From an uncultured bacterium (GTDB lineage: Bacteria; Patescibacteriota; Minisyncoccia; Phycocordibacterales; UBA9973): DNA of 54,620 bases. Below the pieces are notes generated by a model, which had not been told where the DNA came from, searched no databases, and was given only the letters and a program-made list of their open reading frames with translations. Below, piece after piece: positions 36,573-42,579 of this stretch; the stretch's first letter is position 1; each line of letters opens with the position of its first letter. A program made the translations under genes and the position numbers. The DNA lies in the NCBI GenBank assembly GCA_903869825.1, contig CAIQAL010000031.1, forward strand, positions 1-54,620, given 5' to 3'.

Positions 36573-36593
36573 TTACTGCACTGGGTGCAGTAA
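36573..36593. repeat. Palindrome TTACTGCAC-tgg-GTGCAGTAA (left DGR flank)
   Basis: Perfect 9-bp arms, 15 bp beyond the RT stop; second copy at 39307. Confidence 0.85.
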
Positions 36594-36608
36594 AAGTATT
36601 ATTTTAAA

Positions 36609-37598
36609 CTATATCTCAACTCCATTCTTGTTTTTAATATATTTCCTTAATTTGTAAGTATCTCCATGCCCAAGTAATCCCCGATATGAATTTACCGTTT
36701 CTGGCTTCGGATAACCCTTTAATTTCCTGATTATTTTTCTTTTGGTAGAAGTCCTGATTTGCCGATGATATGGAAAATGCACCCAACCCAAAAAATCTAC
36801 CCCTGAAGCATAGGTCTTGATATATACTTTGTTTTCGTGCAGTTTTAACTTCAGTTTTTCGTTTAAAAACTTTTCCATTTTAAGAAGCAGTTCTTCTAAG
36901 TAATTCTCGTTGTCAGATAAGATCGCAAAATCGTCAGCATAGCGAATGTAGTATTTCACTCTAAGTTCCTGTTTTACAAACATATCAAATTCATGCATAT
37001 AAATATTCACAAAAAGTTGTGATGTTAAATTGCCTAAAGGTAAACCCACTCCGATTTTTGTCGTATGAAAACTTGAGATTACTTGTTTAATCAACCAATG
37101 CATTTCTTCGTCTTCAATATGTCGCCTAAGAATTTTGTATAAAACATCATGGTCAATACTGGCAAAAAACTTTTTAATATCGCCCTTCAGCACGTAGCAG
37201 GTTCTGGTATTATTTTTGGATACTTTCCTGGCAAAATATTGAAATCTGTCCAATGCTCTATGCGTTCCTTTTTTCTTACGACAAGAATATGAATCGTAAA
37301 TAAAGCGTTGGTCGAAATATGGATATAATTCTTTGTAGATTAAATGGTGTAGAAGTCTGTCTCGAACTGTTGCTTTATGAATATTTCTTGGCTTCGGGTC
37401 AGAAACATTAAAAGCAGAATATTCTCCATGCTTGTACGTTCTTGTTTGTAGAAGATAATATAAATCATTTATGTTATCTCCGAGTTTTGCTTGAAAAATT
37501 ATCACGCCTTTCTTTTTTCGTTTGCCACGAAGAAAACGCTCCCAAGTCACAAGGAGATTTTCGATTGATATGATATTGTTGTATTTATGAATAAACAT
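36609..37598 (-). CDS. DGR reverse transcriptase (329 aa)
   Basis: KPRNIH, RDRLLH, DSYSCRKKKGTH, DIKKFFASIDH, GLPLGNLTSQ (DGR-type SQ), YIRYADDF, DFLG; start at MFIHKY. Confidence 0.96.
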   Translation of the reverse strand: MFIHKYNNIISIENLLVTWERFLRGKRKKKGVIIFQAKLGDNINDLYYLLQTRTYKHGEYSAFNVSDPKPRNIHKATVRDRLLHHLIYKELYPYFDQRFIYDSYSCRKKKGTHRALDRFQYFARKVSKNNTRTCYVLKGDIKKFFASIDHDVLYKILRRHIEDEEMHWLIKQVISSFHTTKIGVGLPLGNLTSQLFVNIYMHEFDMFVKQELRVKYYIRYADDFAILSDNENYLEELLLKMEKFLNEKLKLKLHENKVYIKTYASGVDFLGWVHFPYHRQIRTSTKRKIIRKLKGYPKPETVNSYRGLLGHGDTYKLRKYIKNKNGVEI

Positions 37599-37615
37599 AC
37601 TAAGACTATAAATTA

Positions 37616-37652
37616 CCCCCCCCCCCGCACAAGCACCGCTTGTGCTTGTGCG
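37616..37652 (+). promoter_or_regulatory. C11 tract plus 11-bp hairpin at the avd 5' end (candidate slippage/phase switch)
   Basis: C11 at 37616-37626, then cgcacaagcac-cgctt-gtgcttgtgcg. Confidence 0.55.
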
Positions 37653-37989
37653 TACCAAAGATTCGTATAAAGTTTGGCACACACATTTAGTTAACATCTC
37701 TAAGGTAAACAGGCACACAATTGGTGTAAAAATTGATGGTATCTTTCTATCTTTGCTTGAAACAATATTTAGAGCAACTTTCGCCAGTGATAAATTTGAA
37801 AAGTTGTCTCTTGTATCTCAAGCCATTGGTAAGGCTGACCTGTTAAAATTCTTTCTACAAATTGGCTGGGAACAGAAAATGCTTGACCACACTGTTTACG
37901 GAAATATTATTCTTCAACTAGACGAAGTTGGTCGAATGTTGGGCGGATGGAAAAAGAGTTTACAAGAAAAAACTCCCGCCAATAAATAG
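37642..37989 (+). CDS. avd: Avd-like accessory variability determinant (four-helix bundle); likely true start at ATG 37587 across the C-tract
   Basis: Ends EVGRMLGGWKK; RHTIGVKID, DLLKFFLQIGWE; lies between RT and TR. Confidence 0.88.
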   Translation: MLVRTKDSYKVWHTHLVNISKVNRHTIGVKIDGIFLSLLETIFRATFASDKFEKLSLVSQAIGKADLLKFFLQIGWEQKMLDHTVYGNIILQLDEVGRMLGGWKKSLQEKTPANK

Positions 37990-38005: not shown

Positions 38006-38129
38006 AAGTTGCAGAAGACGAGAATCACGTTGTTGTCATCCCAGTCATTCTCGAAGTAACCAAGATTGAACTTGAAGTTACCGTCCGAGTTGGCATTCAC
38101 GTTAGGCACCCTGTGGTTGCCGTCAGCGT
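38006..38129 (-). ncRNA. DGR template repeat (TR), 124 bp
   Basis: Ungapped match to 38494-38617 with 16 mismatches, all at minus-strand A; 10 AAY codons. Confidence 0.96.
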
Positions 38130-38465: not shown

Positions 38466-39206
38466 CTAAGTGCTAGCCTGCTCGCTAGCAGGCAAGTCGC
38501 AGAAGACGAGAATCACGTAGAAGTCATCCCAGTCACCCTCGAAGTAACCAAGAACGAACCCGAAGCCACCGTCCGAGTAGGCATCCACGTAAGGCACCCT
38601 GTGGTAGCCGTCAGCGTCTTCCCAGAGAGCATCCTTTTCATCAAAAGAAATCGTCCATTTGCCCTTTAAGAGTTTTTCTTTTGCAACGTCGTAAACCAAC
38701 GTTACACCCTGCCCGCCTGCTAATATGCCATTGTACCTGCGCGAGATATTCATACAATCTTCGCTCGTTACTGTTTCGAGTATCGGAATCATTTTCACTC
38801 TGTAGGTTTTGCCGGGTTCCAGCTTTCGGGTTGCTTTTGAAAAATTCTTGCTATTGAGGTCATTGTTGTAGTAATACGTAGTCTTTTCCTTTTTTGCTTT
38901 TTGGGCAGAGGCGTCAATCTGCGTATCGTGGTTGTAGTCAGCAGGAACAGTTAAGTTAAATTCAACAGGAATACCGAAGCGTTTGTCAATGATTGCAAAC
39001 TTTTTGAGTAATGCGGTCATAAACGTTTTGATTTCGTCCTGAATTAAATTCCCTTTTTTGAAAATTTCCTGTGCTTCTTCCTTAGTAAAACCAAGGTTGA
39101 CGAGGTCACCGGAATTAAATGAATTAATTCCATCTTCAAGCAACCTCTTGATTGCCTTAAGCTGACCTTCGGTCATAGGATCTGATGTAATCTTTTCAGT
39201 TATCAT
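38466..39206 (-). CDS. DGR target protein (246 aa) with C-terminal variable region, probably CLec-like fold
   Basis: Contains the VR at its C-terminus (DADGYHRVPYVDAYSDGGFGFVLGYFEGDWDDFYVILVFCDL); no signal peptide or TM. Confidence 0.92.
   Translation of the reverse strand: MITEKITSDPMTEGQLKAIKRLLEDGINSFNSGDLVNLGFTKEEAQEIFKKGNLIQDEIKTFMTALLKKFAIIDKRFGIPVEFNLTVPADYNHDTQIDASAQKAKKEKTTYYYNNDLNSKNFSKATRKLEPGKTYRVKMIPILETVTSEDCMNISRRYNGILAGGQGVTLVYDVAKEKLLKGKWTISFDEKDALWEDADGYHRVPYVDAYSDGGFGFVLGYFEGDWDDFYVILVFCDLPASEQAST
38476..38493 (-). other. Hairpin/cruciform immediately 3' of the VR (target-recognition element)
   Basis: gcctgct-N4-agcaggc; absent after the TR. Confidence 0.7.
38494..38617 (-). 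repeat. DGR variable repeat (VR)
   Basis: Copy of the TR with A-to-N substitutions in 11 codons. Confidence 0.96.
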
Positions 39207-39284: not shown

Positions 39285-39306
39285 ATTTTTGTTAGGTACA
39301 TTCACT

Positions 39307-39327
39307 TTACTGCACCTGGTGCAGTAA
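39307..39327. repeat. Palindrome TTACTGCAC-ctg-GTGCAGTAA (right DGR flank)
   Basis: Same arms as the 36573 copy; just upstream of the target promoter. Confidence 0.85.
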
Positions 39328-39480
39328 ATAATCAAAAAGCATAAAACTTTCCCATGATATCCTTAAATTATAAGGACACAAAAGAGTTTTATGCCTAAAA
39401 TGAACATTTTAAAAATTTACTCCATGGGGTGGGGTAAACTTGTGCATTTTTTTATTTTTTACATGTGCAATAATAAATTT

Positions 39481-39804: not shown

Positions 39805-40208
39805 CTGTGGTGGCACGCAAAGCAAAGAACGATCAAGTGCGTGAAGTATATGAACTTCAAATTGAAGACGCTGTGCGAGAATTGAAAGAGTTGCGAGGTA
39901 AAACGTTAAACGAAATGGACCCGTCAGTTCCTTATCGAACCGCTCTTCGTAAATCGAAGGGATTCCTGAAAAGCCCTTATGCTGTTTGGAAAAAATTAGA
40001 AATCGAAGAACAACATAAGCTCTATTTTTTCGTATTTGACGAAAAATTAGCGTTTGATCCAAAAAATGGTTATCAAACCGCAGAAATACCAACGGCCATA
40101 AAGCTTTTTGAGGAATTTGTGGTTACAAACTCTCAGAGTGTGGACCCTACAGGACTCGAACCTGCCACCTCCTCATTGCAAATGAGGCGCTCTAGCCAGA
40201 TGAGCTAA
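39660..40208 (+). pseudogene. C-terminal fragment of a large serine recombinase reading into tRNA-Ala
   Basis: Coiled coil, PYRTAL..FLKSPYAVW, ends VDPTGLEPATSSLQMRRSSQMS (tRNA antisense); no catalytic domain. Confidence 0.7.
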
Positions 40209-40214
40209 GGGCCC
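40141..40214 (-). tRNA. tRNA-Ala(UGC)
   Basis: GGGCCCT/AGGGTCC acceptor with G3:U70, cctca-tt-TGC-aa-tgagg, GTTCGAG T-loop; CCA not encoded. Confidence 0.96.
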
Positions 40215-41376: not shown

Positions 41377-41451
41377 TCCGGGGTAGCTCAGCGGTAGAGC
41401 GGTCGCCTGTTAAGCGATTGGTCGTAGGTTCGATCCCTACCCCCGGAGCCA
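41377..41451 (+). tRNA. tRNA-Asn(GUU)
   Basis: TCCGGGG/CCCCGGA acceptor, gtcgc-ct-GTT-aa-gcgat, GGTTCGATCCC, encoded CCA. Confidence 0.96.
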
Positions 41452-42579
41452 GTTAGGTTGATTTGCAAATGTGAGTATATGATTATACGGAGAACGTATT
41501 GAAAACTCTAGCTTATTTTCATTTGCAACGCAGTTCTGAAGTAAGTAATTCAGGATTGCTCTTTTTTCAGGGACTTCAGAACTTTTGAATAATTCAAAAG
41601 CATTTTTTGCTAGATTTAACACAGTAGAAGCCGTAATATAATAGTTTTCATCTGCTCTAGTATGGTCCTCAATTTGGATGTTGATATCATACTGTTTTTC
41701 TTTCATCTCTTTCAACTTTTTATCATACTCATCCTTAGTAATACTCTGGTCAAGAAGTAGGTCAGTAAGACGGCTAAGTCTTACTTGAATAGTGTTGTAT
41801 TCTTGCTGTAAAGCCCTTATAGCTTCTTTGTGATATAAGTCCTTGCCCTCATTTGATTTTTTAAGTCCTTCAACTATTTCGTCTATCTTTGCTTGTGGTA
41901 TGCTCTCAAATGCCTCTAGGAGCTTGTATATGGGCTTTAAAAAGTCTTTTTCTGGTATGTATATCTTCTTATCACATAGGTCTTTTTTGGCATTTGTGCA
42001 ACTATAATAAATAAACTTTCCTTTGGCAGTTTCAGGACTCATAGCACAACCGCATTTTTTACATCGAACCAATCCTCTAAAAATATAAGGTTTTGAAGCG
42101 TATTGAAATGGTTTTTTGCCCCAGCCTTTTCTTATCTGTTGGCATTTTTCAAAAAGCTGTTTGCTTATTATTGGCTGATATTTGTGCGGATATGTTTTGC
42201 CTTTTGATAACATTTCTCCGTAATAGAATGGATTATTTAATATATGGCTAACCATACTTAAAGCCAACGGCTTACCGACATTACTATCTAATCCAGCTTT
42301 TGACATTTCGGTCCTTAGAGTTAGTGTTGAATAATTTCCAGTTGCATATAGCTCAAACATTTTTCTGATTAAGTGGGCAGTGTTTGAATCTAGGATTATA
42401 TCTTTGTTTCCTTTTATATCGCCAATATTTTTATAACCAATAGGAGCTTTACCAGTCCATTCGCCATTTCTTCGTTTTTGTTCAAACTTTCTTTTTACAT
42501 TATCGCTTAATTGAAGCACATAACTTCTTGCAAACATTACTGCCATATCCCAACGAAGAAGGTCTGCACTATTTGAATC
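41437..42579 (-). pseudogene. 5'-truncated large serine recombinase at tRNA-Asn
   Basis: LSDNVKR, APIGY, ILNNPFYYG, PIIS, Zn ribbon CKKCG..YYSC, coiled coil; frame closed by a stop just upstream of DSNSADLLRWD, so the catalytic domain is missing; stop codon lies inside the tRNA. Confidence 0.85.

What the first reader, a model, noticed from the sequence alone, without database searches (positions are those of the whole stretch)
37587..37652. C11 tract plus hairpin puts avd out of frame: possible ON/OFF switch for hypermutation
Seen: ATG 37587 reads MNKHTKTINY into a run of 11 C (37616-37626) and then stops after 27 codons. With 10 or 13 C it runs into the Avd frame (YPPPAQAPLVLVRTKDSY). The Avd frame has a TAA at 37609 and no ATG before the body of the protein. 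The only nearby start (GTG 37642) is buried in a perfect 11-bp stem (cgcacaagcac-cgctt-gtgcttgtgcg) that begins at the end of the C-run. On the other strand the same hairpin plus G11 lies 17 nt before the RT ATG. Inference: slipped-strand phase variation, transcriptional slippage or a programmed frameshift could ration Avd and so DGR activity.
Basis: partly seen in the sequence, partly recalled or inferred. Interest (0 to 1): 0.85.

Follow-up and report, generated by a model that had tools for sequence, protein, structure and literature searches.

The report
Slippery C-run gates DGR accessory gene
A run of eleven C's sits inside the start of the helper gene (avd) of a targeted-hypermutation system and knocks it out of frame; the same unstable run is kept in most relatives, so it probably acts as a stochastic switch or throttle on hypermutation.

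Summary
The window holds a CPR-type diversity-generating retroelement (DGR): target gene with VR, TR, avd on the opposite strand, then RT. The avd and RT start codons overlap head to head. C11 is the longest G/C homopolymer in the 774-kb, 36% GC genome.

The test was comparative. 147 relatives were usable.
- Loci with runs of 6 C or fewer have an in-frame upstream ATG in 31 of 35.
- Loci with runs of 9 C or more have one in 18 of 90.
- 35 of 92 out-of-frame loci have no ATG, GTG or TTG in the Avd frame.
- The ATG frame between the RT start and the run has 0 stops in 232 codons; the other frames have 24/218 and 25/203.
- The Avd body stays intact (dN/dS about 0.05).
- Presence of the run follows the tree. 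Its length and phase do not.
- MutS and MutL were not found.

Best reading: a selected slippery tract that gates Avd. DNA slippage is the most likely level, and RNA or ribosomal slippage is not excluded. The hairpin is real here but not generally kept. No raw reads were available, so switching within a population is not shown. No prior description was found.

The parts
37587..37589 (+). Real avd start codon (ATG). It overlaps the RT start head to head.
   Evidence: 42 of 78 long-run relatives with an RT start found have ATG exactly 9 nt before the RT's CAT, and that frame is open to the run in 42 of 42. Relatives with short runs use this ATG in frame.
37587..37598 (.). 12-nt head-to-head overlap of the avd and RT start codons (ATGAATAAACAT, read as MNKH on one strand and MFIH on the other).
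   Evidence: The same ATGnnnnnnCAT arrangement is seen in relatives.
37587..37670 (+). Leader ORF as it stands in this genome: 27 codons through the run, ending at TAA.
37609..37611 (+). TAA that closes the Avd frame just upstream of the run. Any frame change must therefore happen between 37612 and the Avd body.
37616..37626 (+). C11 slippery run (G11 on the RT strand), one C longer than the in-frame length.
   Evidence: Runs of C7-C15 occur in 105 of 138 non-redundant relatives.
37626..37652 (+). Perfect 11-bp hairpin with a 5-nt loop. It encodes AQAPLVLVR in the Avd frame and contains GTG 37642 and GTG 37648.
   Evidence: It is kept in the nearest relatives but not generally.
37642..37989 (+). 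Avd body (four-helix bundle), annotated from GTG as 115 aa.
   Evidence: Pfam bAvd 4.5e-11. NCBIfam DivGenRetAVD matches residues 3-105 to profile positions 5-104, at 53.1 bits, under the 80-bit cut-off. 351 homologues found.
36609..37598 (-). DGR reverse transcriptase, 329 aa from ATG 37598.
   Evidence: Pfam RVT_1 2.3e-26. Translation. In relatives the RT frame is closed upstream of its ATG in 35 of 42.
38006..38129 (-). Template repeat (TR).
   Evidence: 124 nt and 16 mismatches to VR, all 16 at TR adenines.
38494..38617 (-). Variable repeat (VR) at the 3' end of the target gene.
38466..39206 (-). DGR target gene (246 aa, no Pfam or NCBIfam match).

Best explanation
Translation of avd starts at ATG 37587, which overlaps the RT start codon head to head, and runs through a short leader into the C-run. 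The run is a selected, unstable homopolymer. In this genome it is one C too long, so the ribosome ends after 27 codons and the Avd body (37642-37989) is not made from the sequence as written. Avd appears only after the run changes length.

The most likely route is replication slippage, in a genome where no MutS or MutL was found. That gives a heritable, reversible ON/OFF (phase-variable) state. A low leak by RNA-polymerase slippage, or by a +1 ribosomal slip on CCC-C, may add to it.

Avd is required together with the RT for mutagenic retrohoming in the Bordetella phage model, so the run would gate or ration hypermutation of the target gene.

Shown: the anatomy, the conservation and selection of the run, the use of the ATG, the scrambling of phase, and an intact Avd body. 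Inferred: the level at which slippage acts, and the effect on DGR activity.
For: 1. The ATG is the start.
- Relatives with runs of 6 or fewer have an upstream in-frame ATG in 31 of 35.
- In 42 long-run loci with the ATGnnnnnnCAT arrangement, the ATG frame between the RT start codon and the run has 0 stops in 232 codons. The other two frames have 24 in 218 and 25 in 203.

2. The run breaks the frame in most relatives.
- An in-frame ATG is present in 6 of 22 loci with C7-8 and in 18 of 90 with C9 or more.
- By the RT-overlapping or unique ATG, the phases are 18 in frame, 52 +1, 34 +2 and 8 ambiguous. For C10 or more, only 5 of 63 are in frame.

3. GTG is not a general rescue.
- 35 of 92 out-of-frame loci have no ATG, GTG or TTG in the Avd frame.
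- GTG or TTG near residue 1 is no commoner in out-of-frame loci (56 of 92) than in in-frame loci (31 of 55).

4. Avd is still under selection.
- 91 of 92 out-of-frame loci keep a full-length body.
- dN/dS has a median of 0.051 in 47 pairs of out-of-frame loci.
- The window's own VR differs from TR at 16 of 16 adenine sites, so the DGR has been active.

5. The run itself is selected. CCC is 9.9% of Pro codons, and 0 of 25 PPP triplets are all-CCC. C11 is the longest G/C run in the genome.

6. The run's length changes fast at the DNA level.
- 4 of 11 pairs with at least 90% identical flanks differ in run length, including C15 against C11 with 90 of 90 identical flank bases.
- On a tree of the Avd body, presence of a long run follows the tree: 18 changes against 29.0 in shuffles, with 0 of 500 shuffles as low.
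- Phase does not follow the tree: 39 changes against 39.0, with 284 of 500 as low.
- Run length hardly follows it: 56 against 59.9, with 45 of 500 as low.

7. No MutS1 and no MutL match was found in a 98.7% complete genome.

8. Avd is required with the RT in the model DGR (passages of PMC5758913).
Against: - No reads were available, so length heterogeneity inside one population is not shown. Only low-depth contigs, which read C11, could be laid.
- 7 of 11 near-identical pairs have the same run length. The majority genotype is therefore fairly stable, and some of those pairs may be one data set filed twice.
- Out-of-frame states are commoner than the one third expected for neutral switching (binomial p 3.6e-4). 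This needs an extra assumption, selection for OFF, and it fits obligatory recoding equally well.
- This window does have GTG at 37642 and 37648, so internal initiation cannot be excluded here.
- Most assemblies are short-read MAGs, and homopolymer lengths in them carry some error.
- My choice of ATG and the tblastn anchor of Avd residue 1 enter every phase call.
- The tree is a FastTree of about 327 nt.
Confidence: 0.55

Rival explanations
1. Obligatory recoding. The out-of-frame genotype is the normal state. A fixed small share of Avd is made in every cell, either because RNA polymerase slips on the run or because the ribosome slips (+1 on CCC-C, or -1) while stalled on poly-proline and the downstream hairpin. 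In this reading DNA length changes are drift, not the switch.
For: - In-frame genotypes are under-represented among long runs: 18 of 104 assigned, and 5 of 63 for C10 or more.
- The +1 phase, which one CCC-C slip would repair, is the commonest (52 of 104).
- The genome has tRNA-Pro with anticodons UGG and CGG only, and none with GGG. CCC is therefore a rare codon (9.9%) read by wobble.
- Listeria phages of low G+C use +1 shifts on rare CCC codons (passages of PMC5009743).
- In this window a strong hairpin starts at the last C of the run.
- That runs of this length make RNA polymerases slip is my recollection, not a call.
Against: - There is no fixed geometry. Both out-of-frame phases occur (52 and 34). 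The register in which the ATG frame enters the run varies, and so does the codon after the run.
- Phase has no phylogenetic signal, unlike known programmed shift sites, which keep one direction. That comparison is recalled.
- In-frame long runs do exist (18).
- The hairpin is absent from most relatives (85 of 105 not significant), and covariation was not detected.
- No tRNA with a four-base anticodon was found.
- EF-P is present.
Confidence: 0.25
2. Internal initiation. In this genome Avd is made as the annotated 115-aa protein from GTG 37642 (or 37648). The upstream ATG leader is only a short upstream ORF, and the run has no effect on Avd supply.
For: - GTG is present at 37642 and 37648.
- The 115-aa form covers positions 5-104 of the 104-position NCBIfam Avd profile, so the leader lies outside the fold.
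- Gene callers give 115-aa forms for many relatives.
Against: - 35 of 92 out-of-frame relatives have no canonical start in the Avd frame.
- GTG or TTG at that place is not enriched in out-of-frame loci.
- All relatives without a long run use the upstream ATG (31 of 35).
- The ATG frame is kept open.
- No purine-rich ribosome-binding motif precedes GTG 37642; the preceding bases are the C-run and the 5' arm of the stem.
- The GTG lies in an 11-bp stem of -19 kcal/mol.
Confidence: 0.1
3. The tract works on the other strand. As G11 with the hairpin, 17 nt before the RT start, it tunes RT transcription or translation (promoter spacing or 5' leader). Its effect on the avd frame would be secondary. 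This could hold together with the best explanation.
For: - The G-run lies a median of 17 nt (interquartile range 13-24) upstream of the RT ATG in 78 relatives.
- The RT frame is closed upstream of its ATG in 35 of 42, so the run is non-coding for RT.
- The hairpin folds at least as well on the minus strand (-20 to -22 kcal/mol).
Against: - The distance to the RT start is variable (range -11 to 107 nt), which does not suit a promoter spacer.
- The promoter scan found no site spanning the run, and its total count was not above shuffles (3 found against 2.4).
- This reading does not explain why the ATG frame is open to the run, or why short-run loci are always in frame.
Confidence: 0.07
4. Artefact. 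The true run is C10 and the extra C is an assembly or sequencing error.
For: Homopolymers are error-prone, and depth in the runs that could be laid is only 2-4.
Against: - Two contigs from two runs read C11 without gaps.
- The nearest relative, from another study (L001), also has C11 in the same phase.
- The same out-of-frame pattern is seen in 88 of 112 long-run loci from many assemblies.
- Independent assemblies of near-identical loci agree in 7 of 11 pairs.
Confidence: 0.03

Closest known systems
Simple-sequence contingency loci: poly-C/G tracts in the 5' coding part of phase-variable genes of Neisseria, Haemophilus, Campylobacter, Bordetella and Mycobacterium. Titles and abstracts were seen; the details are recalled.
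   Same: - A G/C homopolymer of 8-15 lies just after the start codon.
- Its length differs between near-identical loci.
- Both in-frame and out-of-frame states occur among relatives.
- The tract stands out against codon usage and against the rest of the genome.
   Different: - The gated gene is not a surface or restriction-modification gene but the accessory protein of a targeted mutator, so one mutable device controls another.
- The hosts are CPR/Patescibacteria.
- Out-of-frame states dominate: 88 of 112 loci lack an in-frame ATG.
- Switching within a population is not shown.
DGR architecture B3, TR-(avd)-RT, of candidate phyla radiation bacteria (Wu et al. 2018, PMC5758913; passages read).
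   Same: - Order and orientation match: target with VR, TR, avd on the reverse strand, then RT.
- That paper states that B3 makes up 90% of its CPR set.
   Different: The passages I read do not mention a homopolymer, a frameshift in avd, or overlapping start codons. Its supplements were not seen.
+1 ribosomal frameshifting on rare CCC proline codons in low-G+C Listeria phages (review PMC5009743; passages read).
   Same: A low-G+C genome, rare CCC codons, and a structure just downstream in one of the phage cases.
   Different: The phage sites have one fixed shift site and one direction. Here the register, direction and run length vary between relatives.
Transcriptional slippage on long homopolymers that rescues out-of-frame genes (endosymbiont poly-A tracts, IS elements, dnaX of Thermus). 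Recalled; the review PMC5009743 covers the topic.
   Same: A run long enough for polymerase slippage, out-of-frame genomic states with an intact downstream ORF, and any phase tolerated.
   Different: The known bacterial cases use A/T runs. No RNA data exist here. In-frame states are depleted rather than neutral.

Membership tests
Diversity-generating retroelement (DGR) | A TR/VR repeat pair whose differences fall at template adenines | tested here: met
   124-nt repeats, with 16 of 16 mismatches at TR adenines on the minus strand.
Diversity-generating retroelement (DGR) | Reverse transcriptase gene next to TR | tested here: met
   RVT_1 2.3e-26. The best NCBIfam matches are group II and defence RT models, all below their cut-offs. 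That library scan returned no DGR-specific RT model.
Diversity-generating retroelement (DGR) | Avd accessory protein | tested here: met
   Pfam bAvd scores 43.6 bits against a cut-off of 40. NCBIfam DivGenRetAVD scores 53.1 bits, below its 80-bit cut-off, but covers profile positions 5-104.
DGR architecture B3, TR-(avd)-RT | avd lies between TR and RT on the opposite strand | tested here: met
   Coordinates. Definition from PMC5758913.
Phase-variable contingency locus (slipped-strand mispairing) | A long homopolymer inside the 5' coding region, between the start codon and the functional body | tested here: met
   C11 lies 29 nt after the ATG. Use of the ATG frame is shown by 0 stops in 232 codons.
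Phase-variable contingency locus (slipped-strand mispairing) | Tract length differs between otherwise near-identical sequences, and both ON and OFF phases occur | tested here: met
   4 of 11 near-identical pairs differ in length. Phases are 18, 52 and 34. Phase shows no phylogenetic signal.
Phase-variable contingency locus (slipped-strand mispairing) | Length heterogeneity within one population, and reversible switching | not testable with these tools
   Only Logan contigs at depth 2-4 were on offer, with no raw reads.
Programmed ribosomal frameshift site | Shift site with a conserved register and a single direction | tested here: not met
   Both directions are needed (52 and 34). The entry register and the following codon vary. 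Phase is random on the tree.
Programmed ribosomal frameshift site | Conserved downstream stimulatory structure | tested here: inconclusive
   A hairpin is significant in 20 of 105 loci, where about 5 are expected. Covariation was not above shuffles: 73.4% of cells paired against 72.2%, with 126 of 500 shuffles as high.
Transcriptional slippage site | RNA carries a different run-length distribution from the DNA | not testable with these tools
   No RNA holder was listed.

The most novel reading that the evidence does not exclude
Across a large part of the candidate phyla radiation, the DGR mutator is itself under a conserved contingency switch. A selected poly-C tract in the first codons of avd keeps the accessory protein out of frame in the majority genotype of most populations. 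It flips by slippage, so that only a minority of cells, or rare moments, carry out targeted hypermutation. This would be a hypermutable switch on a hypermutator, inherited as a tract while its state is randomised.
Probability: 0.45. Interest if true: 0.88.

Novelty: new variant of a known kind. Interest (0 to 1): 0.8.

Why it matters
- How DGR activity is controlled is largely unknown (my recollection). A built-in stochastic gate on Avd would explain how small-genome CPR bacteria carry an active mutator without paying its cost in every cell.
- It makes a direct prediction that metagenome time series can test: populations whose run is in frame should show more VR diversity.
- It has a practical side. 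Database Avd proteins of this clade are mostly annotated from an internal GTG as 113-115 aa, which is probably wrong. DGR surveys that demand intact ORFs may misjudge these elements.
- In a genome without detected MutS or MutL, a run kept at C8-C15 across relatives down to about 40% protein identity is a clear case of selection for mutability itself.

Tried and rejected
- **Expression data.** No RNA holder was listed for the stretch, so nothing can be said about expression.
- **Read-level run lengths.** Only Logan contigs could be laid. In X2 and X3 the contigs stop at or before the run. At depth 2-4 this is not evidence of heterogeneity.
- **Hairpin as a conserved element.** Rejected as a general feature. 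It remains possible as a clade-specific modulator. A few distant loci have unrelated perfect stems at the same place, for example L117, L148, L152 and L159.
- **A fixed hungry or stop codon after the run**, as at classical +1 sites. None was found.
- **A tRNA with a four-base anticodon.** None among the tRNAs found.
- **An RT that starts upstream of the G-run**, which would make the run a switch for RT as well. Rejected: the RT frame is closed upstream of its ATG in 35 of 42.
- **Promoter or terminator role of the hairpin.** The scan gave 3 promoter-like sites against 2.4 in shuffles, none spanning the run. The one terminator-like site lies elsewhere.
- **Pseudogene.** Rejected by the intact body and the dN/dS value.
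- **Prior description.** Literature searches listed no paper linking avd or DGRs to a homopolymer, to a frameshift in avd, or to phase variation of the element. The hits for DGR with 'phase-variable' concern gut phages and their hosts, judged from titles and abstracts. Paul et al. 2017 (Nat Microbiol), the main CPR DGR paper, is not held (its id was confirmed). Supplements are closed. A mention there cannot be excluded.
- **Rows dropped.** 14 of 161 sequences were left out for having under 130 nt upstream. One search reduced the 147 usable loci to 138 non-redundant ones. For the tree, 136 of those 138 passed the filters, and 96 had an unambiguous phase.

Full report
**What is there**

The region is a complete diversity-generating retroelement (DGR).
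- A 246-aa target gene (39206-38466, minus strand) ends in a variable repeat (VR, 38494-38617).
- The template repeat (TR, 38006-38129) differs from VR at 16 positions, and all 16 are adenines of the TR on the minus strand.
- A reverse transcriptase runs from ATG 37598 to 36609 on the minus strand (RVT_1, 2.3e-26).
- avd lies between TR and RT, on the plus strand. Pfam bAvd scores 4.5e-11. The NCBIfam DGR Avd profile matches positions 5-104 of 104, though below its cut-off.

This TR-(avd)-RT order is the B3 architecture, which Wu et al. report for 90% of their candidate-phyla-radiation DGRs (passages of PMC5758913). The titles of the related genome records name Patescibacteria/CPR lineages.

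**The observation**

- ATG 37587 reads 27 codons through C11 (37616-37626) and then stops.
- The Avd frame is closed by TAA 37609 and has no ATG before the body.
- A perfect 11-bp stem (37626-37636 with 37642-37652) starts with the last C of the run and contains GTG 37642.
- On the other strand, the hairpin and G11 lie 17 nt before the RT ATG.

The run is exceptional. It is the longest G/C homopolymer in a 774-kb genome of 36.4% G+C, where the next longest are three G8 runs. CCC is the rarest proline codon (9.9%), and none of 25 Pro-Pro-Pro triplets in long ORFs is written CCC CCC CCC.

**Relatives at the protein level**

The 120 best Avd homologues (65-100% identity) fall into two groups. One group is 112-116 aa long and starts at the place of GTG 37642. 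The other group is about 120-137 aa long, apart from a few longer calls. Many of the longer forms begin like the window's leader (M-N/S-E/K-H ...) and run through PPP-x-Q-x-PLVLVR into the body. With one C fewer, the window would read exactly like these.

**Relatives at the DNA level**

I fetched 160 loci, placed Avd residue 1 by tblastn and read the upstream DNA. Of 161 sequences, window included, 147 had enough upstream sequence.

A run of 7 to 15 C lies 4 to 42 nt before the body in 112 of the 147 (105 of 138 non-redundant), down to about 40% protein identity.

| Run length | Loci with an upstream in-frame ATG |
|---|---|
| C6 or fewer | 31 of 35 |
| C7-8 | 6 of 22 |
| C9 or more | 18 of 90 |

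Taking the ATG that overlaps the RT start, or else the only ATG phase available, the long-run loci are 18 in frame, 52 with one base too many, 34 with two too many, and 8 ambiguous. For C10 or more, 5 of 63 are in frame.

**The ATG is used, and the GTG is not a general answer**

- In the stretch between the RT start codon and the run, which is non-coding for RT, the ATG frame has no stop in 232 codons across 42 loci. The other two frames have 24 in 218 and 25 in 203.
- 35 of 92 out-of-frame loci have no ATG, GTG or TTG anywhere in the open part of the Avd frame.
- A GTG or TTG near residue 1 is equally common in in-frame loci (31 of 55) and out-of-frame loci (56 of 92). This is what valine and leucine codons of the PLVLVR motif would give by themselves.

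**The gene is alive**

91 of 92 out-of-frame loci keep a full-length body. The one exception is a partial match. dN/dS in 47 pairs of out-of-frame loci has a median of 0.051. The window's own VR shows past retrohoming. Avd must therefore be made in lineages whose assembled sequence is out of frame.

**At which level does the frame change?**

*For the DNA level*
- 4 of 11 pairs of loci with at least 90% identical flanks differ in run length. One pair has 90 of 90 identical flank bases and C15 against C11. Another pair flips between in frame (C9) and out of frame (C10).
- On a tree of the Avd body, presence of a long run is inherited: 18 changes against 29.0 ± 1.7 in shuffles, with 0 of 500 as low.
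- Phase is as scattered as shuffled labels: 39 changes against 39.0 ± 2.2.
- Run length is nearly as scattered: 56 against 59.9.
- The 98.7% complete genome has no MutS1 or MutL match.

*Against a classical programmed ribosomal shift*
- Both directions are needed.
- The register of entry into the run and the next codon vary.
- The hairpin is not general (below).

*For an RNA or ribosome contribution*
- In-frame states are rarer than one third (binomial p 3.6e-4; independence is reasonable because phase shows no tree signal).
- The +1 phase is the commonest.
- The genome has only tRNA-Pro UGG and CGG, so CCC is read by wobble.
- Rare CCC codons are known +1 shift sites in low-G+C phages (PMC5009743 passages).

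I cannot separate these levels without reads or RNA. They may act together.

**The hairpin**

It is strong in the window: -19 kcal/mol, z -6.5. It is kept in the closest relatives. Among 105 non-redundant long-run loci, only 20 have a stem-loop better than 95% of shuffles. That is more than the 5 or so expected by chance, but still a minority. On 15 loci with the window's geometry, pairing and covariation do not exceed shuffles: 73.4% of cells paired against 72.2%, with 126 of 500 as high. In the window's clade the stem may simply follow from the conserved coding sequence. I treat it as a possible local modulator, not as part of the general device.

**Reads**

Six runs hold parts of the stretch, all as Logan contigs and none as RNA. 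Two contigs, from runs X1 and X4, cross the run without gaps, so they read C11. Depth is 2-4, all from one study, possibly the window's source. This speaks against a simple assembly slip but says nothing about minority lengths.

**Comparison with what is known**

The device works like a simple-sequence contingency locus. It meets the features I could test: place, length, polymorphism, and both phases. The defining test, heterogeneity and reversible switching within a population, was out of reach. It fails the test of a fixed programmed frameshift site.

What seems new is the gated gene, the accessory protein of a targeted mutator, and the breadth of conservation in CPR bacteria. Seven searches of the held library listed nothing on it.

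**Verdict**

It is not supported for the hairpin as a general element, and the level of slippage remains open. Confidence in the gate with DNA slippage as the main route is 0.55. Adding obligatory recoding brings confidence that a frame change at the run is needed for Avd to about 0.8. Interest is 0.8.

Noticed in passing
window 36573-36594, 39306-39328, 39417-39438: A 22-nt palindrome (9-10-bp stem, 3-nt loop; -11 to -12 kcal/mol) brackets the DGR cassette. One copy lies 15 nt after the RT stop and one about 100 nt before the target gene start. A third, weaker copy lies 110 nt further on. These could be terminators or the ends of a cassette.
   Followed up: partly
window 37587-37598: The avd and RT start codons overlap head to head in a 12-nt near-palindrome (ATGnnnnnnCAT). 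The same arrangement is seen in 42 of 78 long-run relatives with an RT start found. Each gene's upstream region therefore lies inside the other gene, and no ribosome-binding motif precedes either ATG. Both mRNAs may be leaderless or nearly so. A -10-like TATGAT with an upstream TG ends 13 nt before the avd ATG.
   Followed up: partly
whole genome G000: No MutS1 or MutL match in a 98.7% complete 774-kb genome. EF-P is present. Only two tRNA-Pro genes (UGG and CGG) were found.
   Followed up: yes
G000 contig C10: 686-705 and 1359-1373: Two very long A runs (A20 and A15) lie close together near a contig end. They are far longer than any other A/T run in the genome.
   Followed up: no
window 37611-37646 (run X4, record 8): A 151-nt contig from the same study shares the run and the 5' half of the hairpin (36 nt, 1 mismatch, no gap) but has different sequence on both sides. 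A second, related DGR or strain with the same tract probably lives in the same water.
   Followed up: no
locus L002, about 45 nt before the Avd body: In one close relative the run is broken by A's into short C blocks and is still out of frame with the ATG. It looks like a tract frozen in the OFF phase.
   Followed up: no
window 40140-40214 and 41377-41451, with 41437-42546: tRNA-Ala and tRNA-Asn genes flank a phospholipase-D-like ORF. A large serine-recombinase-like ORF begins at the tRNA-Asn, about 2 kb from the DGR. The DGR may sit beside or on an integrated element.
   Followed up: no
proteins P0001-P0120: About half of the database Avd proteins of this clade are annotated from the internal GTG or TTG (some still printed with V or L as first residue), or from arbitrary in-frame starts just before the run. 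Their N-termini are probably mis-called because of the tract.
   Followed up: partly
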